Origin: a virus
Lineage: Duplodnaviria; Heunggongvirae; Uroviricota; Caudoviricetes
Direction: 5' to 3' (one strand)
IMG/VR virus record: IMGVR_UViG_2541047692_000014
Length of the DNA: 29,480 nucleotides
Shown here: positions 1 through 8,702 of the stretch, in pieces
Numbering within the stretch: the stretch's first letter is position 1
Layout of the letters: every line of letters begins with the position of its first letter
Notes under the pieces: model-generated
Database searches by the model: none
The model's input: only the letters and a program-made list of their open reading frames with translations
What the model was told of the DNA's origin: nothing
Program-made: the position numbers and the translations under genes

Positions 1-1011
1 TTATAACGTCACTCCGCCTTTTAGTGGATTCAGAGCGACGGCATTTTGCAGATAGTCAGGCGCAAGGTGCGCATAGGCCATCGTCTGCTGAATGCTCGCA
101 TGTCCCAGAATCTGTTGCAGTGCGATTATATTGCCCCCATTCATCATGAAATGGCTTGCGAATGTATGCCGCAGGATGTGGGTTGCCTGATTGGGTGGTA
201 TATCAGGTTTCACTCTGCGTAAAATCCCGCAAAATTTCTCATAATCAACTTTGAATAATTTGGCGCTGGCCTCCTCTTTAACTTTTTTCTCCAGTTCCTC
301 AGAAATCGGCACGGTTCGCTTTTTACCGTTTTTGGTTTTCAGGAAGGTAACCCTGCAATTTGTAATCTGTGCTGGTTTTAGCGTGGCAACTTCCGTCCAT
401 CTTCCTCCAGTGCTCAGACATAAAAGCGCGACAAGTAAGTCATCACCAGCCAAAACATTTAACAGTTTTTCGATTTCTGCTTTTTCCAGGAACGTCATTT
501 CAGGGTTGGCCTCCGCCAGTGGCGGCAGTCCGTGAATTGGGTGTTGCCCAGAAAATTCATCCAATTGAATTAATTTTGTGAACATGCCGGATAATCGGTA
601 CATGTCACGGTTTATCGTTGCGGCACTGATACCATCACGTAGTCGCATGGAACGATAATCCATCAAAGCCCTTTTGCTCATCCTGCTCACTGGTATATCA
701 CCTATGCCGCTGATGGTTTTGAGTAGATGATTAAACTCTTTTGTTCCATGCTCGTGGTTTTGCCCGTGATATTTCCACCAGATGTCCAGCAACTCACTCA
801 AAGTCCGGCGGTCTGCTCGCTGGCCTCCCCATTCTTTCTGACTGGCATTGGCGATTGTGTATCGCTCAAATGCTAGTGCTTCAGCTTTTCTTTCGAATTT
901 CCTGCGGATGCGTTTTCCGTCGCGACCGCGAGGTCTAATGTCCACTTCATAGCGACCATCATCGAGCTTCTTAATTGCCATAAGAAAGCCCTCCGGCGCT
1001 GTATTCACCAT
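1..1011 (-). CDS. int: Tyrosine integrase (P2 Int-like), 336 aa
   Basis: Translation has a C-terminal tyrosine recombinase signature (HTFASHFMMNGGNI...LQQILGHASIQQTMAYAHL) and sits next to the repressor at the prophage end. An internal ATG at 981 (MAIKKL...) has a better SD (GGAGG, 8 nt spacing) and may be the true start. Confidence 0.9.
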   Translation of the reverse strand: MVNTAPEGFLMAIKKLDDGRYEVDIRPRGRDGKRIRRKFERKAEALAFERYTIANASQKEWGGQRADRRTLSELLDIWWKYHGQNHEHGTKEFNHLLKTISGIGDIPVSRMSKRALMDYRSMRLRDGISAATINRDMYRLSGMFTKLIQLDEFSGQHPIHGLPPLAEANPEMTFLEKAEIEKLLNVLAGDDLLVALLCLSTGGRWTEVATLKPAQITNCRVTFLKTKNGKKRTVPISEELEKKVKEEASAKLFKVDYEKFCGILRRVKPDIPPNQATHILRHTFASHFMMNGGNIIALQQILGHASIQQTMAYAHLAPDYLQNAVALNPLKGGVTL

Positions 1012-2711: not shown

Positions 2712-3013
2712 TGTCCTGTTCTCATTCAGTTGTATTACTGAATAACGCCTTAAAAATCGCCGTTATGAAAAATGGCGATTTGTCTCTTATTCAACTTGGT
2801 CTTGATAAAGAAAAACGCGAAATAACTGAATATGTTATCGCGATTTATCAGAATGAATTAAACCTCCTGTCTGATGTGGTCAATTTACTTGTTAAACGCG
2901 CTGTATTCCACAAGCAAATTTCCTCCGTGGATGAACTGACGAAATTAACGACAGAAATCGCCAGCTATTGCGCTGATAAATTTAAGAAGCTGAACGACAA
3001 AAGGAGCTGGTAA
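2708..3013 (+). CDS. Early-operon hypothetical protein, P2 orf81-like, 101 aa
   Basis: ORF translationally coupled to its neighbours (ATGA at 2708-2711, TAATG at 3011-3015). Confidence 0.6.
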
Positions 3014-3510
3014 TGCCGGACAACGTAGATTTTATTCAGGAACAACAGGCTGAATTACTGGAGCGCCAGATTAACGCGGCAAGGGTAAAACATTGCGGTG
3101 TTTCTGCGCTGGTTTGCGAAGAGTGTGACGCGCCAATACCTGCTGCCCGTCGTGCGGCTTATCCATCAGCCACGCGTTGTGTTTCCTGTCAGTCAGTCTT
3201 TGAAGCAAAAAAACAAACATTACCGGAGAATGGCATGAGCATTCGTATTGAAATTGGCGAACGTTATGTCGTTACCAGTGACAGCTTTCAGTTTATTCTC
3301 CACGAGAAAAAGAGAGCGGAAAGCGGTAAAAACGCCGGTCAGGAATGGCTGTCGGTGGTTGGTTATTACCCGAAATTAAGCCAGCTCGTTTCCGGCCTGA
3401 TGCATCACGATATTCTGACCGGAAGCGCAAAGTCTTTTGCTGATTTAAACGCGCAGGTTGAGCAACTCAGCAGGCGTTGTTCAGAGGCTTTTGGCTCATA
3501 TGGCCGTTAA
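3013..3510 (+). CDS. TraR/DksA-family C4 zinc-finger protein (orf82-like) fused in frame to an orf83-like domain, 165 aa; an internal start at 3235 would give a separate 91-aa product
   Basis: N-terminal 70 aa carry a CxxC-N17-CxxC motif (CEECDAPIPAARRAAYPSATRCVSCQ) typical of TraR/DksA zinc fingers. There is no stop before the downstream segment; the in-frame ATG at 3235 has a good SD (GGAG). Confidence 0.55.
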   Translation: MPDNVDFIQEQQAELLERQINAARVKHCGVSALVCEECDAPIPAARRAAYPSATRCVSCQSVFEAKKQTLPENGMSIRIEIGERYVVTSDSFQFILHEKKRAESGKNAGQEWLSVVGYYPKLSQLVSGLMHHDILTGSAKSFADLNAQVEQLSRRCSEAFGSYGR

Positions 3511-5785
3511 AGCCTCCGGGCGTTTTGTCCCTCCGTCAGCATTTGCCGCAGGCACCGGTAAGGCGTTTACCGGTGCTTATGCATGGAACGCGCCACGCGA
3601 GGCCGTCGGGCGCGAAAGACCCCTTACACGTGACGAGATGCGTCAGGTGCAAGGTGTTTTATCCACGATTAACCGCCTGCCTTACTTTTTGCGCTCGCTG
3701 TTTACCTCACGCTATGACTACATCCGGCGCAATAAAAGCCCGGTGCACGGGTTTTATTTCCTCACATCCACTTTTCAGCGTCGTTTATGGCCGCGCATTG
3801 AGCGCGTGAATCAGCGCCATGAAATGAACACCGACGCGTCGTTGCTGTTTCTGACAGAGCGTGACCACTATGCGCGTCTGCCGGGGATGAATGACAAGGA
3901 GCTGAAAAAGTTTGCCGCCCGTATCTCATCGCAGCTTTTCATGATGTATGAGGAACTCTGCGATGCCTGGGTGGATGCGCATGGCGAAAAAGAATCGCTG
4001 TTTACGGATGAGGCGCAGGCGCATCTGTATGGTCATGTTGCTGGCGCTGCACGTGCTTTCAATATTTCCCCGCTTTACTGGAAAAAATACCGTAAAGGAC
4101 AGATGACCACGAGGCAGGCATATTCTGCCATTGCCCGTCTGTTTAACGATGAGTGGTGGACTCATCAGCTTAAAGGCCAGCGTATGCGCTGGCATGAGGC
4201 GTTATTGATAGCTGTCGGGGAGGTCAATAAAGACCGTTCTCCTTATGCCAGTAAACATGCCATTCGTGATGTGCGTGCGCGCCGTCAGGCAAATCTGGAG
4301 TTTCTTAAATCGTGTGACCTTGAAAACAGGGAAACCGGCGAACGCATCGACCTTATCAGTAAGGTGATGGGCAGTATTTCTAATCCTGAAATTCGCCGGA
4401 TGGAGCTGATGAACACCATTGCCGGTATTGAGCGTTACGCCGCCGCAGAGTGTGATGTGGGGATGTTTATCACGCTGACCGCGCCGTCAAAGTATCACCC
4501 GACACGTCAGGTCGGAAAAGGCGAAAGTAAAACCGTCCAGCTTAATCACGGCTGGAATGATGAGGCATTTAATCCGAAGGATGCGCAGCGTTATCTCTGC
4601 CGTATCTGGAGCCTGATGCGCACGGCATTCAAGGATAATGATTTACAGGTCTACGGTTTGCGAGTCGTCGAGCCACACCACGACGGAACGCCGCACTGGC
4701 ATATGATGCTTTTTTGTAATCCACGCCAGCGTAACCAGATTATCGAAATCATGCGTCGCTACGCGCTCAAAGAGGATGGCGACGAAAGAGGAGCTGCGCG
4801 AAACCGTTTTCAGGCAAAACACCTTAACCGGGGCGGTGCTGCGGGATATATCGCGAAATACATTTCAAAAAACATCGACGGCTATGCACTGGATGGTCAG
4901 CTCGATAACGATACCGGCAGGCCGCTGAAAGACACCGCCGCGGCTGTTACCGCATGGGCGTCAACGTGGCGCATCCCGCAATTTAAAACGGTTGGCCTGC
5001 CGACAATGGGGGCTTACCGTGAACTACGCAAATTGCCTCGCGGCGTCAGTATTGCTGATGAGTTTGACGAACGCGTCGAGGCTGCACGCGCTGCCGCAGA
5101 CAGTGGTGATTTTGCGTTGTATATCAGCGCGCAGGGTGGGGCAAATGTTCCGCGCGATTGTCAGACTGTCAGGGTTGCCCGTAGTCCGTCGGATGAAGTT
5201 AACGAGTACGAGGAAGAAGTCGAGAGAGTGGTCGGCATTTACGCGCCGCATCTCGGCGCGCGTCATATTCATATCACCAGAACGACGGACTGGCGCATTG
5301 TGCCGAAAGTTCCGGTCGTTGAGCCTTTGACTTTAAAAAGCGGCATCGCCGCGCCTCGGAGTCCTGTCAATAACTGTGGAAAGCTCACTGGTGGTGATAC
5401 TTCGTTACCGGCTCCCACACCTTCTGAGCACGCCGCCGCAGTGCTTAATCTGGTTGATGACGGTGTTATCGAATGGAATGACCCGGAGGTCGTGAGGGCG
5501 CTCAGGGGCGCATTAAAACACGACCTGAGAACACCAAACCGTCAGCAAAGAAGCGGAAGCCCGTTAAAAGCGCATGAAATAGCGCCATCGGCCAGACTGA
5601 CCCGGTCGGAACGAATGCAAATTACCCGTATCCGCGTTGACCTTGCTCAGAACGGTATCAGGCCGCAGCGATGGGAGCTTGAGGCGCTGGTGCGTGGCGC
5701 GACCGTAAATTATGACGGGAAAAAATTCACGTATCCGGTCGCTGATGAGTGGCCGGGATTCTCAACAGTAATGGAGTGGACATGA
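3500..5785 (+). CDS. A: Replication initiation protein A (rolling-circle nicking endonuclease), 761 aa
   Basis: Long ORF with the rolling-circle initiator motifs HWHMMLF (HUH-type metal site) and YIAKYISKNIDGY (catalytic tyrosines). Start placed at the ATG at 3500 (MAVKASGRF...), which gives the P2 gpA length; the ORF-track start at 3458 is an upstream extension overlapping orf83. Confidence 0.92.
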   Translation: MAVKASGRFVPPSAFAAGTGKAFTGAYAWNAPREAVGRERPLTRDEMRQVQGVLSTINRLPYFLRSLFTSRYDYIRRNKSPVHGFYFLTSTFQRRLWPRIERVNQRHEMNTDASLLFLTERDHYARLPGMNDKELKKFAARISSQLFMMYEELCDAWVDAHGEKESLFTDEAQAHLYGHVAGAARAFNISPLYWKKYRKGQMTTRQAYSAIARLFNDEWWTHQLKGQRMRWHEALLIAVGEVNKDRSPYASKHAIRDVRARRQANLEFLKSCDLENRETGERIDLISKVMGSISNPEIRRMELMNTIAGIERYAAAECDVGMFITLTAPSKYHPTRQVGKGESKTVQLNHGWNDEAFNPKDAQRYLCRIWSLMRTAFKDNDLQVYGLRVVEPHHDGTPHWHMMLFCNPRQRNQIIEIMRRYALKEDGDERGAARNRFQAKHLNRGGAAGYIAKYISKNIDGYALDGQLDNDTGRPLKDTAAAVTAWASTWRIPQFKTVGLPTMGAYRELRKLPRGVSIADEFDERVEAARAAADSGDFALYISAQGGANVPRDCQTVRVARSPSDEVNEYEEEVERVVGIYAPHLGARHIHITRTTDWRIVPKVPVVEPLTLKSGIAAPRSPVNNCGKLTGGDTSLPAPTPSEHAAAVLNLVDDGVIEWNDPEVVRALRGALKHDLRTPNRQQRSGSPLKAHEIAPSARLTRSERMQITRIRVDLAQNGIRPQRWELEALVRGATVNYDGKKFTYPVADEWPGFSTVMEWT

Positions 5786-6237
5786 TGGCAAAAATTCACG
5801 AGGTAAAGCTGCACGCAAAATATTTTGACCTTGTGCTGGAAGGAAAGAAACGCGCAGAGTTTCGGAAAAATGACCGTAATTATGAGCGCGGGGACACGTT
5901 GATTTTGCATGAATGGGCGCAGGGTGTGTATACGGGGCGAAAGGTTGAAGCCCGGATAACAGATGTTACTGACCTGTCAGACTGGCTGGAAGATTATGTC
6001 TTGCTAAGTATTGAGCTGCTTAATACAGGCGCATATGAGATTGTGAACTGGAAAGAACTTAGTGAGCGTGGTCTGGTATTCAGAATTAATCATGAAATTA
6101 TGCATCAGCTCGGCCTTTCTGTTATGTATGCACCAGAGACGGGGATGTCTGGCGGGGCAATGGTTGCCACGGATGGAGCATGGAACTATTCAGATGAACA
6201 GATTGAGCGTGCAAAGCAAAACGGGTGGCTTGGATAA
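5782..6237 (+). CDS. ASCH/DUF3850-like domain protein with C-terminal extension, 151 aa
   Basis: ATGA overlap with the gene A stop; N-terminal segment (KIHEVKLHAKYFDLVLEGKKRAEFRKNDRNYERGDTLILHEW) resembles ASCH/PUA-fold proteins. The domain call is from memory and unverified. Confidence 0.55.
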   Translation: MMAKIHEVKLHAKYFDLVLEGKKRAEFRKNDRNYERGDTLILHEWAQGVYTGRKVEARITDVTDLSDWLEDYVLLSIELLNTGAYEIVNWKELSERGLVFRINHEIMHQLGLSVMYAPETGMSGGAMVATDGAWNYSDEQIERAKQNGWLG

Positions 6238-6443
6238 TGCACAGAATACCGGGCGAGATACCGCAACATAACACTAAAAATATCAAGCTGATGGCTATTG
6301 TTCACCGTCTACAGCAGATTATGGTCAACGAAAATCTGACGCCTGACGAGCTGGTCGGGTGTGCCGAAATAGTCCGGGATAATTACGGGCGGCTTAATTA
6401 TATCCGTCAGTCCAGAGTTGCTCCACCGCCACGCAGACTATAG
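6237..6443 (+). CDS. Small hypothetical protein, 68 aa
   Basis: ORF translationally coupled to the upstream gene (TAATG at 6235-6239). No recognisable motif. Confidence 0.45.
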   Translation: MHRIPGEIPQHNTKNIKLMAIVHRLQQIMVNENLTPDELVGCAEIVRDNYGRLNYIRQSRVAPPPRRL

Positions 6444-6658
6444 AAAACGCCGTCAGTCTTGAAACTTGTTTTCAGGGCTGGCGGGGTTGAACAACGAGCA
6501 TCGCGAGGCGTTAGTGGTATTGGAACCAATGAGAAAACAAAAAACTCAACGCCTCCCCTCATGTTTGATGGTATGGTCTTGTTTTTAGGTAATGAAGCTT
6601 TATTCGGGTGACGTGTCTAATATAGCTTTCTGCATGACGTTAGAATGATGATGAGATC

Positions 6659-7261
6659 ATGTTATTAATGAATGAGAAAAAAAGACAAAAATATCTAAAG
6701 ATAATGTTTGAATGTCAAAAGCGACTTGAAACACTTCATGCTTTATCATCTGGAAGGATTGATGGCATTTATTTTCAAGTGTTAATTGAAATGGAGGCGT
6801 TGCAGCTTAGGAAGCTACTAGAGCTCATTGCATTTTCATCTCTAATTTCACATGAAAAAGCATACGAGAAGGTTACAAAGAAGATTGATGGTGTATGGAA
6901 GGCGAAGAATATATTTAAAGAGTTGGAAAAGATAAACCCTAACTTTTATCCAGTACCAATATCAGGAGTAACCAAAACGGGCTGGACGAAACTAACGGGA
7001 GGTTTTTTGACGAAAAAACAGTTTATCAAGCTATATGATGAATGCTCAAAACATATTCACGTAAGGAACCCATATCGGGTTAGGGAAAACTCGCTGGGGT
7101 TTCATAAAAAAGTTCCAGAGTATTTATCAAGAATTGAAACTCTACTGTTAAAGCACATTGTTTCTCTTGCCGGGAATGAAGAACTTCTTCTTGTAGATGT
7201 GCCTCATTATGAAGACTCTGTAACAGCTATAAAAATGAGCCACCTCGTTAAAATGGGGTGA
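6659..7261 (+). CDS. Hypothetical protein of unknown function, 200 aa, AT-rich cargo at the P2 tin/old hotspot; candidate anti-phage defence or superinfection-exclusion gene
   Basis: Uninterrupted 200-codon ORF (alternative start at 6668) in a markedly AT-rich block, unlike the flanking phage core. It follows a 215-bp non-coding spacer and is followed by a stem-loop plus T-run. It sits between the replication module and cos, where P2 carries tin/old. Confidence 0.6.
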   Translation: MLLMNEKKRQKYLKIMFECQKRLETLHALSSGRIDGIYFQVLIEMEALQLRKLLELIAFSSLISHEKAYEKVTKKIDGVWKAKNIFKELEKINPNFYPVPISGVTKTGWTKLTGGFLTKKQFIKLYDECSKHIHVRNPYRVRENSLGFHKKVPEYLSRIETLLLKHIVSLAGNEELLLVDVPHYEDSVTAIKMSHLVKMG

Positions 7262-7296
7262 AAAATAAGCAATAAATAGTCGATTCTAGTGAACGG

Positions 7297-7320
7297 TCGG
7301 CTATTTTTAGCCGGATTTTT
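7297..7320 (+). terminator. Putative intrinsic terminator downstream of the 200-aa cargo ORF
   Basis: Hairpin CGGCTA-TTTT-TAGCCG followed by GATTTTTAT. Confidence 0.4.
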
Positions 7321-7479
7321 ATACTGTTTCCCCTTAATTACAGTCGTTTCTATTCATGCATGTGCTATTGCATCGAATTGCATGCGTTTTCATCCCCTGT
7401 TGCTTATGAGCGTTGTCAGTGCTGGCGCATTCTCGGTATGTTCATGCAACTGCATCAAAATCGCCCCATGAAGCGGGCG

Positions 7480-7498
7480 GGCGAGGCGGGGAAAGCAC
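7480..7498. other. cos: cos site (19-nt cohesive end GGCGAGGCGGGGAAAGCAC)
   Basis: Exact string GGCGAGGCGGGGAAAGCAC is present at 7480-7498, between the cargo region and the portal gene where P2 cos is expected. The cohesive-end sequence is recalled from the P2/186 literature. Confidence 0.65.
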
Positions 7499-7640
7499 TG
7501 CGCGCTGGCGGTGGTGCTGATTTTATTTTTTCAGCGTCTGAGCGCGTCGTGATGGCGTTTAGATTGTGCGCCGGGGCGTTGGTGTGTCTGCGGGGTGTTT
7601 TGTGCGGTGGTGAGCGTGTGAGGGAGTGATGACGGGGTAT

Positions 7641-7662
7641 AAAAAAGCCGCCCGCAGGCGGC
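7641..7662 (-). terminator. Rho-independent terminator downstream of portal gene Q
   Basis: On the minus strand: GCCGCC-TGCG-GGCGGC hairpin followed by TTTTTT, immediately 3' of the Q stop codon (7668). Confidence 0.7.
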
Positions 7663-7667
7663 GATGT

Positions 7668-8702
7668 TCAGCCGTTGTCAGTGTCCAGTGAGTAGTTTTT
7701 AAAGCGGATGACCTCCTGACCAAGCCAGCCGTTTATCTCGCGGATCCTGTCCTGTAGCGGGATAAGCTCATTGCGGACAAAGACCTTTGCCACTTTCTCA
7801 ATATCTCCCAGTGACCCGACGTTCTCCGGCTTGCCGCCCATCAACTGAAAGGGGATGCGGTGCGCGTCCAGCAGGTCTGCGGCACTGGCTTTTTTGATAT
7901 TAAAAAAATCGTCCTTCGTTGCCACTTCACTGAGCGGGATAATTTTAATGCCGTCAGCTTTCCCCTGCGGGGCATAGAGAAACAGATTTTTAAAGTTGTT
8001 GCGGCCTTTCGACTTAACCATGTTTTCGCGAAGCATTTCGATATCGTTGCGATCCTGCACGGCATCGGTGACGTACATGATGTATCCGGCATGTGCGCCA
8101 TTTTCGTAATACTTGCGGCGGAACAGCGTAGCTGATTCATTCAGCCAGGCAGAGTTAAGGGCGCTGAGATATTCCGGCAGGCCGTACAGCTCCTGATTAA
8201 TATCCGGCTCCAGCAGGTGAAACACGGAGCCGGGCGCGAAAGGTGTCGGTTCGTTGAAGGACGGCACCCACCAGTAAACATCCTCCTCCACGCCACGGCG
8301 GGTATATTTGGCCGGTGAGGTTTCCAGTCTGATGACCTTACCGGTGGTGCTGTATCGCTTTTCCAGAAACGCATTACCGAACACCAGAAAATCCAGCACA
8401 AAGCGGCTGAAATCCTGCTGGGAAAGCCACGGATGCGGGATAAACGTTGAAGCCAGAATATTACGTTTGACGTAAATCGGTGAGCTGTGATGTACGGCAG
8501 CACGCAGGCTTTTTGCCAGACCGGTAAAGCTGACCGGTGGCTCATACCATCTGCCGTTACTGATGCACTCGACGTAATCCAGAATGTCACGGCGGTCGAG
8601 TACCGGCACCGGCTCACCAAAGGTGAATGCCTCTATTTTCGGGGCGCTGGCGGTCATTGTTTTCACCGCTGGCTGCGGTGTTTTCCCTTTTTTCTTGCTC
8701 AT
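7668..8702 (-). CDS. Q: Portal protein, 344 aa
   Basis: 344-aa ORF, the P2 gpQ length, adjacent to and overlapping (ATGA) the terminase large subunit gene and divergent from the capsid operon. Confidence 0.9.
   Translation of the reverse strand: MSKKKGKTPQPAVKTMTASAPKIEAFTFGEPVPVLDRRDILDYVECISNGRWYEPPVSFTGLAKSLRAAVHHSSPIYVKRNILASTFIPHPWLSQQDFSRFVLDFLVFGNAFLEKRYSTTGKVIRLETSPAKYTRRGVEEDVYWWVPSFNEPTPFAPGSVFHLLEPDINQELYGLPEYLSALNSAWLNESATLFRRKYYENGAHAGYIMYVTDAVQDRNDIEMLRENMVKSKGRNNFKNLFLYAPQGKADGIKIIPLSEVATKDDFFNIKKASAADLLDAHRIPFQLMGGKPENVGSLGDIEKVAKVFVRNELIPLQDRIREINGWLGQEVIRFKNYSLDTDNG

What the first reader, a model, noticed from the sequence alone, without database searches (positions are those of the whole stretch)
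5782..6443. ASCH/DUF3850-like protein plus a coupled 68-aa ORF after gene A, possibly part of the same accessory module
The 151-aa ORF overlaps the gene A stop (ATGA) and has an N-terminal segment resembling ASCH/PUA-fold RNA-binding domains, fused to about 70 extra C-terminal residues. It is coupled (TAATG) to a 68-aa ORF with no recognisable motif. ASCH-like domains occur in some defence and RNA-modification contexts, so these two genes may work with, or regulate, the downstream 200-aa cargo gene, or they may simply be conserved early genes.
Basis: partly seen in the sequence, partly recalled or inferred. Interest (0 to 1): 0.5.

Follow-up and report, generated by a model that had tools for sequence, protein, structure and literature searches.

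The report
Optional ASCH gene pair after gpA
Two small real genes at the end of a P2-type prophage's replication operon, an ASCH/DUF3850-DUF7415 protein (the homologue of P2 Orf91) and a 68-residue helical protein, form a common and already annotated optional module that travels independently of the defence cargo next to it, and its function is still unknown.

Summary
ORF151 (5782-6237) overlaps the gpA stop codon (ATGA). It carries DUF3850/ASCH (residues 5-77) plus a second Pfam domain, DUF7415 (residues 87-129). Its stop overlaps the start of orf68 (6237-6443; TAATG).

The proposed link to the 200-aa cargo is not supported:
- The pair occurs in 345 of 5426 complete E. coli genomes; the cargo occurs in 21.
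- Across 55 loci, the pair flanks 25 unrelated cassettes, including Iet, a cytosine methylase with PD-Lambda-5-like genes, a restriction-enzyme-like gene and one empty 128-bp cassette.
- One cassette also sits directly after gpA in a phage that lacks the pair.

The pair is not core either: about 20% of genomes with a P2-type gpA carry it.

ORF151 is the homologue of P2 Orf91 and Wphi gp91/gp92. orf68 is the homologue of PSP3 gp37. Rousset et al. 2022 already list "DUF3850/ASCH" in this hotspot.

Both domains are widespread in virulent phages. This suggests a function in the phage's own lytic cycle, possibly counter-defence, but that is inferred and not shown. The finding is ordinary and already annotated, with the biochemistry unknown.

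The parts
5782..6237 (+). ORF151, a two-domain protein homologous to P2 Orf91 and to Wphi gp91+gp92. RefSeq WP_024187708.1, 'DUF3850 domain-containing protein'.
   Evidence: ORF list and sequence; Pfam; phrog_1812 E 1.7e-80; RefSeq annotation in L067; AF2 pLDDT 88.5.
5794..6012 (+). DUF3850/ASCH domain (residues 5-77), a PUA-like beta-barrel. It carries the ASCH octapeptide GxKxx[ETS]xR as G22-K-K24-R-A-E27-F-R29.
6040..6219 (+). DUF7415 domain. The Pfam match covers residues 87-129; the modelled alpha-alpha-beta-beta-alpha unit covers residues 90-146. Invariant residues are W90, G97, L98, I102, N103, E105, H108 and G111.
   Evidence: Pfam; alignment of 36 homologues; AF2 secondary structure; no PDB relative by profile search.
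6237..6443 (+). orf68, a helical-hairpin protein (helices 10-31 and 36-61) with pI 10. It has a conserved core and a variable tail ending in PPPRR. It is the homologue of PSP3 gp37.
   Evidence: phrog_11386; 195 homologues; alignment; AF2 pLDDT 81; only 33 representatives at 50% identity among 1.84 billion proteins; PSP3 annotation; pI.
5773..5787 (+). Junction of gpA and ORF151: GGAG, then ATGATG overlapping the gpA stop codon TGA. This is a translational-coupling arrangement.
   Evidence: Read directly from the sequence.
6223..6239 (+). Junction of ORF151 and orf68: GGGTGG, then TAATG (stop and start overlap).
   Evidence: Read directly from the sequence.
6444..6515 (.). Non-coding flank still shared among pair-carrying phages. 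Homology ends abruptly at 6514-6515 in most loci, which marks the left edge of the swappable cassette.
   Evidence: Breakpoint table. 64% of columns are variable, so there is no sign of a conserved element. No terminator or Rfam hit.
6516..7440 (+). Neighbouring variable cassette, NOT part of the module. It holds the 200-aa cargo gene (6659-7261), has GC 0.37, and has its own terminator-like hairpin at 7297-7314.

Best explanation
ORF151 and orf68 are an optional add-on at the end of the P2-type early (replication) operon. They are not part of the adjacent cargo cassette.

Shown:
- Both are real, selected genes that start by stop/start overlap, from gpA and then from ORF151.
- The unit is built from separable pieces: DUF3850 alone as in P2; DUF3850-DUF7415 plus orf68 as here; orf68 alone as in 186/PSP3-like phages.
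- It sits next to any cassette, or next to none.

Inferred:
- The genes are made with gpA during lytic development and serve the phage itself.
- The ASCH beta-barrel acts as a ligand or nucleic-acid binder, not a YqfB-type hydrolase, because the nucleophile position is Glu rather than Thr.
- The acidic DUF7415 domain works with the basic helical orf68, which always accompanies it in E. coli P2-like phages.
- The most likely role is host take-over or counter-defence (anti-restriction-like) during infection.
For: Independence from the cargo:
- 345 E. coli genomes carry the pair and 21 carry the cargo.
- 25 cassette types occur among 55 loci, including Iet, a C5 methylase with PD-Lambda-5-like genes, an REase-like gene and an empty 128-bp cassette.
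- One 3-gene cassette, 88.6% identical over 3174 nt, lies after the pair in L008 and directly after gpA in L151.

Early-operon placement: ATGA and TAATG overlaps with Shine-Dalgarno-like motifs. No terminator-like site lies between gpA and orf68.

Accessory status:
- gpA is in 1682 genomes, DUF3850 in 380 and the full pair in 345.
- GC is 0.46-0.49, against 0.53 for the whole window.

Link between DUF7415 and orf68:
- All 56 IMG/VR loci with full ORF151 have orf68. None of 78 further gpA loci has DUF7415 without orf68.
- The link also holds in Enterobacter, at 53% and 58% identity.
- The charges are opposite: DUF7415 pI 4.9, orf68 pI 10.

Phage-side function:
- 1287 phage records carry one domain or the other, including virulent T7-like, T1-like and T4-like phages.
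- DUF7415 lies beside gpA in P2-like prophages of 8 further genera. It is fused to a Lar restriction-alleviation domain in one of them.
- There are no PADLOC defence hits.
Against: - No experiment or expression data bear on timing or function.
- The counter-defence idea rests on one Lar fusion, one BFVD hit named 'restriction alleviation protein' and general analogy.
- DUF3850 and DUF7415 sit in inconsistent contexts elsewhere: between tail genes in a T7-like phage, after a helicase in a T1-like phage, and between gpL and gpX in Pseudomonas P2-like prophages. Early timing is therefore not a family rule.
- orf68 occurs without DUF7415, so a strict complex is unproven.
- ORF151 is net acidic, which fits poorly with general nucleic-acid binding.
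- A preprint calls P2 orf91 'essential' in passing and without data (PMC12407873). That conflicts with its absence from most P2-like prophages.
Confidence: 0.5

Rival explanations
1. The pair is a functional partner or regulator of the downstream 200-aa cargo gene, forming one accessory module.
For: All E. coli records and the one phage with the cargo that were inspected also carry the pair upstream, on the same strand. No terminator was predicted between orf68 and the cargo.
Against: The cargo is found only in a near-clonal set (21 genomes, 99-100% identical), so its co-occurrence with the pair is explained by descent. The pair occurs with 24 other cassettes and with an empty one. Cassettes move between backbones that have the pair and backbones that lack it. 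Homology breaks sharply at 6515, between orf68 and the cargo. GC drops from 0.49 to 0.37 at that point.
Confidence: 0.05
2. The pair is a replication accessory. The ASCH domain binds ssDNA or RNA at the origin and assists gpA-initiated rolling-circle replication.
For: ORF151 is translationally coupled to gpA. DUF7415 genes lie immediately before or after gpA in P2-like prophages of Yokenella, Pseudoalteromonas, Nitrincola, Shewanella, Symbiopectobacterium, Brenneria and Erwiniaceae. A T1-like phage has DUF3850 overlapping a helicase gene. ParB-DUF3850 fusions suggest nucleic-acid binding (PMC12704722).
Against: About 80% of E. coli genomes with the same gpA type lack it. In Pseudomonas P2-like prophages, DUF7415 lies in the late operon between gpL and gpX. 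In a T7-like phage, DUF3850 lies between tail genes. The protein is acidic.
Confidence: 0.15
3. The pair is itself a lysogenic-conversion or defence gene set of the A-Q hotspot, expressed from the prophage.
For: It lies inside the gpA-gpQ interval defined as a defence hotspot. It is listed there as 'DUF3850/ASCH' by Rousset et al. (PMC9122126). It is optional and has lower GC than the core. PUA-family domains serve as sensors in type IV restriction enzymes (established knowledge).
Against: There is no significant PADLOC hit (best E 0.025). There is no effector domain. It is coupled to the lytic early operon, with no promoter-like site of its own. Both domains are common in strictly virulent phages.
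Confidence: 0.12
4. ORF151 is a YqfB-like enzyme that deacylates N4-acetylcytidine or a related modified nucleoside.
Against: The YqfB nucleophile Thr24 position is Glu27 here and in the DUF3850 structure 3IUW. Identity to YqfB is only 15%.
Confidence: 0.05

Closest known systems
Bacteriophage P2 Orf91 (NP_046796.1) and Wphi gp91/gp92
   Same: Same position, overlapping the gpA stop codon. The DUF3850 domain is 96-98% identical. Wphi gp92 is the DUF7415 piece.
   Different: P2 Orf91 is 109 aa. Similarity ends at window position 6005 (residue 75), so P2 lacks DUF7415 and orf68 and is followed by tin and old. In Wphi the reading frame is annotated as split into two genes.
PDB 3IUW, Enterococcus faecalis 'activating signal cointegrator' (DUF3850)
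   Different: It is a single-domain structural-genomics protein with no assigned function and no DUF7415.
E. coli YqfB and other ASCH proteins (ZmASCH, TRIP4/ASC-1)
   Same: PUA-like ASCH beta-barrel and the octapeptide GxKxx[ETS]xR.
   Different: The Thr nucleophile of the YqfB Lys-Thr-Glu triad is Glu here. Identity is 14-15%. Enzyme or RNase activity cannot be assumed.
Salmonella phage PSP3 gp37 (orf37) and 186-like prophage homologues
   Same: Homologue of orf68 with 81% identity over 58 residues. It is likewise the last rightward gene before the variable region next to the portal gene.
   Different: It follows tumA/tumB (SOS antirepressor, DinI-like) after a gap of about 195 bp. It does not follow an ASCH-DUF7415 gene and its start does not overlap an upstream stop.
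P2 gpA-gpQ defence hotspot (Rousset et al. 2022, PMC9122126)
   Same: The pair lies inside that interval, and the hotspot tables already list 'DUF3850/ASCH' genes.
   Different: The pair is not itself the swapped unit. The cassette boundary lies downstream of it, at window position 6515.
Lar / restriction-alleviation proteins (PF14354)
   Same: A DUF7415 domain is fused to a Lar domain in a Symbiopectobacterium P2-like prophage, just upstream of gpA.
   Different: ORF151 has no Lar domain. The link rests on one fusion only.

Membership tests
ASCH superfamily / DUF3850 (PF12961, PF04266) | Profile-HMM match above the curated cut-off | tested here: met
   DUF3850 66.2 bits (cut-off 22.9); ASCH 43.8 bits (cut-off 21.2).
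ASCH superfamily / DUF3850 (PF12961, PF04266) | Conserved octapeptide G-x-K-x-x-[ETS]-x-R | tested here: met
   G22-K-K24-R-A-E27-F-R29, read from the translation. Motif definition from PMC9599836.
ASCH superfamily / DUF3850 (PF12961, PF04266) | PUA-like beta-barrel fold | tested here: met
ASCH superfamily / DUF3850 (PF12961, PF04266) | Binding of RNA or a modified nucleoside | not testable with these tools
   Needs EMSA or ligand-binding assays.
YqfB-type N4-acetylcytidine amidohydrolase | Catalytic Lys-Thr-Glu triad, with the Thr nucleophile inside the octapeptide | tested here: not met
   The Thr24 position is Glu27 in ORF151. Lys and Arg are kept. The equivalent of Glu74 was not assessed.
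DUF7415 (PF24187) | Profile-HMM match above the curated cut-off, plus the conserved W...GL..RIN.E..H.LG motif | tested here: met
   50.9 bits (cut-off 27). Invariant columns in a 36-sequence alignment.
Anti-phage defence system (PADLOC catalogue) | Significant match to a known or candidate defence protein model | tested here: not met
   ORF151: only PDC-M11B at E 0.025 over 20 residues. orf68: no hit.
Swappable cargo of the P2 gpA-gpQ hotspot | Lies within the block that is exchanged between otherwise collinear phages | tested here: not met
   In 47 of 56 pair-carrying loci, homology continues through the pair and ends at 6514-6515. The exchanged block runs from 6516 to about 7440. The pair is present or absent as a separate layer.
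Core gene set of P2-like phages | Present in nearly all members | tested here: not met
   The full pair is in 345 genomes and P2-type gpA in 1682. Of 78 IMG/VR gpA loci, 21 have none of the three parts.
Obligate two-gene unit (ORF151 + orf68) | The two genes always occur together | tested here: inconclusive
   DUF7415 predicts orf68 in every Escherichia and Enterobacter P2-like locus seen. However, orf68 occurs without it, DUF3850 occurs without either, and DUF7415 in other genera has no orf68.

The most novel reading that the evidence does not exclude
The ASCH-DUF7415 protein and its helical partner orf68 form a previously unrecognised counter-defence module, anti-restriction-like or otherwise host-immunity-neutralising. 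It would be co-translated with the replication initiator during infection. DUF7415 would be the active unit, shared with many virulent phages.
Probability: 0.2. Interest if true: 0.55.

Novelty: already known. Interest (0 to 1): 0.2.

Why it matters
As it stands, little. The genes are already in RefSeq as 'DUF3850 domain-containing protein' and 'hypothetical protein'. They are homologues of P2 Orf91, Wphi gp91/92 and PSP3 gp37, and they are already listed in published tables of the P2 hotspot.

What this analysis adds:
- The A-Q interval is layered: an optional A-proximal module, with a break at the domain boundary near 6005 and another at 6515, followed by the true swappable cassette.
- This matters for delimiting candidate defence systems. 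ASCH/orf68 should not be counted as part of whatever system lies downstream.
- If DUF7415, found in more than a thousand phage genomes, turned out to be a counter-defence domain, that would be of moderate interest.

Tried and rejected
- Rfam scan of 5000-8000 at E<=1: nothing.
- Promoter and terminator scan: no terminator between gpA and the cargo, and promoter-like sites no more frequent than chance. The 72-bp flank 6444-6515 is less conserved than the coding sequence, so I dropped the idea of a functional RNA or DNA element at the boundary.
- orf68 hits were rejected as chance similarity between helical hairpins: Pfam VBS (E 0.019, below cut-off), talin in the PDB (E 0.19) and Foldseek (best E 9).
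- PADLOC PDC-M11B (E 0.025, 20 residues): rejected.
- Apparent fusions of DUF7415 or DUF3850 with Cox, RepB, gpA and tail-protein domains are chimeric ORFs created by deletions in decayed prophages. They are not informative architectures.
- The 64-aa ORF after a standalone DUF7415 gene in a jumbo-phage-like contig is a hydrophobic peptide unrelated to orf68.
- NCBIfam: no hits.
- Literature: nothing on DUF7415. For orf91 there are only 'unknown' and one unreferenced 'essential'.
Full report
CONTEXT. The window is a P2-like (Peduovirus) prophage. Its layout is integrase (1-1011, minus strand), repressor C, cox, B, orf80-83, gpA (3458-5785), the two ORFs of the finding, a 200-aa ORF, and then portal Q and terminase P on the minus strand. 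The region 5300-7700 is 98.6% identical to Yersinia phage vB_YpM_50. It is collinear with many Peduovirus genomes only up to a point just past the second ORF.

OBSERVATION.
- gpA ends with TGA at 5783-5785. ORF151 starts at ATG 5782 (ATGA overlap; a second in-frame ATG at 5785 is the one RefSeq uses). A GGAG lies at 5773-5776.
- ORF151 ends with TAA at 6235-6237. orf68 starts at ATG 6237 (TAATG) behind GGGTGG at 6223-6228, and ends at 6443.
- Pfam places DUF3850 on residues 5-77 (E 2.9e-18) and ASCH on 9-74 (E 4.4e-11). The 'extra 70 residues' are a second catalogued domain, DUF7415, on residues 87-129 (E 1.8e-13). All three are above the curated cut-offs.
- orf68 has no Pfam, NCBIfam or PADLOC hit, but it belongs to phrog_11386.

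Both ORFs are real genes.
- In an alignment of 46 distinct E. coli-type sequences, variable columns fall mostly on third codon positions: 12/7/24 for the DUF3850 part, 22/7/23 for DUF7415 and 10/5/21 for the orf68 core.
- Against an Enterobacter homologue, dN/dS is 0.22, 0.14 and 0.12. dS is saturated, so these are rough values.

FOLD.
- An AlphaFold2 model of ORF151, built from a 36-sequence alignment, has mean pLDDT 88.5. It shows a beta-barrel (residues 1-79), a less confident linker, and an alpha-alpha-beta-beta-alpha unit (residues 90-146).
- 3IUW is also found by sequence alone (E 2.5e-13).
- The ASCH octapeptide G-x-K-x-x-[ETS]-x-R (PMC9599836) is present as G22-K-K24-R-A-E27-F-R29.
- The position of the YqfB nucleophile Thr24 is Glu here, so ORF151 should not be filed as a YqfB-type amidohydrolase.
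- orf68 is predicted to be a two-helix hairpin (pLDDT 81) with no meaningful structural or sequence relatives outside its own family.
- That family is tiny: 33 representatives at 50% identity among 1.84 billion proteins. All are from Enterobacterales.

WHAT IT IS HOMOLOGOUS TO.
- ORF151 is the counterpart of P2 Orf91. In P2, similarity stops at window position 6005 (residue 75), and P2 Orf91 (109 aa) continues with an unrelated tail before tin and old.
- In Wphi the same gene is annotated as gp91 (the DUF3850 part) and gp92. gp92 is the DUF7415 piece.
- orf68 corresponds to PSP3 gp37. There, and in 186-like E. coli prophages, it follows tumA/tumB (DinI-like) and not an ASCH gene.
- The supplementary tables of Rousset et al. 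2022 already list 'DUF3850/ASCH' among genes of the gpA-gpQ hotspot. Their cloned 'old-tin' construct includes Orf91 as gene 3.
- The exact proteins are in RefSeq as WP_024187708.1 and WP_021519102.1.

DISTRIBUTION AND THE LINK TO THE CARGO. Counts among 5426 complete E. coli genomes:
- The 3' end of this gpA type is in 1682 genomes.
- The DUF3850 segment is in 380.
- The whole pair, at 80% coverage or more, is in 345.
- The 200-aa cargo region is in 21, at 99-100% identity.

The pair is therefore neither core (about 20%) nor tied to this cargo (about 6% of pair carriers).

Evidence from IMG/VR:
- All 56 loci with a full-length ORF151 also have orf68, and none has the cargo.
- Nucleotide homology to the window runs through the pair and stops at 6514-6515 in 47 of these loci. 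It resumes at about 7433-7451, next to cos and Q.
- The block in between ranges from 128 to 4966 bp and falls into 25 sequence clusters among 55 loci.
- Sampled cassettes include an Iet system (IetS E 1e-273), a C5 cytosine methylase with a PD-Lambda-5_A-like gene, another PD-Lambda-5-like set, an REase/HATPase-like protein and several unknowns.
- L009 has the pair and essentially no cassette.
- One three-gene cassette lies after the pair in L008 and directly after gpA, with no pair, in L151. The two copies are 88.6% identical over 3174 nt.

The cargo-bearing E. coli records I inspected all carry the pair. They are near-clonal, so this reflects common descent. The window's cassette also differs in composition, with GC 0.37 against 0.46-0.49 for the pair and 0.53 overall. 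It has its own terminator-like hairpin at 7297-7314.

ANATOMY OF THE MODULE. The pieces are separable. Among 78 further gpA loci:
- 40 have DUF3850 + DUF7415 + orf68.
- 12 have DUF3850 only, the P2 type.
- 5 have an orf68-like gene only.
- 21 have none of the three.
- None has DUF7415 without orf68.

An Enterobacter P2-like prophage keeps the same arrangement at 53% and 58% identity, with an ATGA-type overlap between the two genes. Within Escherichia and Enterobacter P2-like phages, DUF7415 and orf68 therefore travel together. DUF7415 is acidic (pI 4.9) and orf68 is basic (pI 10). I take this as a hint of partnership, not as proof.

The orf68 tail (6399-6440) varies equally at all three codon positions. 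It occurs as a few discrete alleles, all ending in PPPRR. The 72-bp flank is more variable than the coding sequence, so I see no conserved element at the boundary.

WIDER CONTEXT OF THE DOMAINS.
- tblastn finds one domain or the other in 1287 phage records, but both together (80% coverage or more) in only 25, all P2-like.
- DUF3850 alone occurs in a T7-like phage (Kayfunavirus Vec13, between tail tubular proteins A and B) and in T1-like phages (Tunavirus). In one Klebsiella phage it lies right behind a helicase gene.
- DUF7415 alone occurs in T4-like Straboviridae, often beside nrdD, and in records of about 110 kb. It also occurs in a 291-kb contig amid NUDIX, DUF1937, Nmad5 and methyltransferase genes.
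- In P2-like prophages of other genera, a DUF7415 gene lies immediately after or before gpA. This holds for Yokenella, Pseudoalteromonas, Nitrincola, Shewanella, Symbiopectobacterium, Brenneria and an Erwiniaceae genome.
- In Pseudomonas P2-like prophages it lies between gpL and gpX.
- Its fusion partners vary: a Lar restriction-alleviation domain, DUF551 and an unnamed segment.
- A recent survey reports ParB-CTPase-DUF3850 fusions enriched in prophages and speculates about anti-defence roles (PMC12704722).

INTERPRETATION. The part I consider well supported is that this is an optional, self-contained add-on to the end of the early operon, independent of the neighbouring cassette.

How it works is inference.
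- The stop/start overlaps, and the absence of a predicted terminator or promoter, suggest co-expression with gpA in lytic development.
- The presence of both domains in strictly virulent phages argues for a job in the phage's own infection cycle. It argues against lysogenic conversion.
- The patchy distribution, small size, acidity, lower GC and the Lar fusion fit counter-defence or host take-over better than an essential replication role.
- The recurring gpA neighbourhood of DUF7415 keeps a replication-accessory role alive.
- A defence role for the pair itself is possible but lacks any positive evidence. The YqfB-type enzyme reading fails on the nucleophile.

VERDICT. The proposed functional tie to the 200-aa cargo is not supported. 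The genes are already annotated homologues of long-known P2-family ORFs of unknown function. Interest is low (0.2). The only reading that would raise it is that DUF7415 with orf68 is a new counter-defence module, which I put at about 0.2 probability.

Noticed in passing
window 3013-3510 (A-run at about 3207-3213): A run of seven A's, against six in the near-identical E. coli prophage L067 and in P2, fuses orf82 (DksA/TraR zinc finger) and orf83 (DUF5405) into one 165-aa ORF. This could be a sequencing or assembly error, a real frameshift mutation or a slippery site.
   Followed up: partly
window 6516-7440: The true swappable cassette. Homology among pair-carrying phages ends at 6514-6515 and resumes at about 7433-7451. 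GC is 0.37. The 200-aa ORF has no Pfam, NCBIfam or PADLOC hit (only phrog_13799). It occurs only in 21 near-clonal E. coli genomes and in phage vB_YpM_50.
   Followed up: partly
window 6399-6440 (orf68 tail): The C-terminal tail of orf68 varies equally at all codon positions. It exists as a few discrete alleles of different length that all end in PPPRR. The meaning of this conserved proline-arginine end is unexplained.
   Followed up: no
window 6005-6021 (domain boundary in ORF151): In P2-type phages, homology stops inside the gene, right at the end of the DUF3850 domain (window 6005-6018). The domain boundary therefore doubles as a recombination junction.
   Followed up: partly
L086, L090-L094 about 4980-5200; L085 4992-5414; L101 4968-5450; L081 4001-4408: In Pseudomonas P2-like prophages, standalone DUF7415 genes sit between head-completion gpL and tail gpX. 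In other genera they sit beside gpA. In Symbiopectobacterium, DUF7415 is fused to a Lar restriction-alleviation domain; in Nitrincola it is fused to DUF551. In Erwiniaceae and Brenneria it is joined to a 'DFFAGxGxPGxPxTPEEMQ' segment, at either end.
   Followed up: partly
proteins P0016, P0018, P0032, P0038, P0039, P0013, P0035, P0040: E. coli genomes contain chimeric ORFs that join Cox, B, gpA or tail-protein fragments to parts of ORF151. These are footprints of large internal deletions in decaying P2-like prophages, and they mimic novel domain architectures in database tables.
   Followed up: yes
L009 6739-6866: One IMG/VR P2-like contig has the ASCH-orf68 pair followed by only 128 bp before the cos/Q-proximal conserved sequence, which is effectively an empty hotspot.
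   Followed up: no
L173, L180, L181 (about 4806-5066 or 3201-3461): An 86-aa ORF directly after gpA carries a stretch similar to the orf68 core (residues 27-56). This may be a more distant branch of the orf68 family occupying the ASCH position.
   Followed up: no
L182 2992-3219 (Escherichia phage Vec13): In a T7-like Kayfunavirus, a 75-aa DUF3850 gene is wedged between tail tubular proteins A and B. This is an odd place for a putative RNA-binding protein.
   Followed up: no
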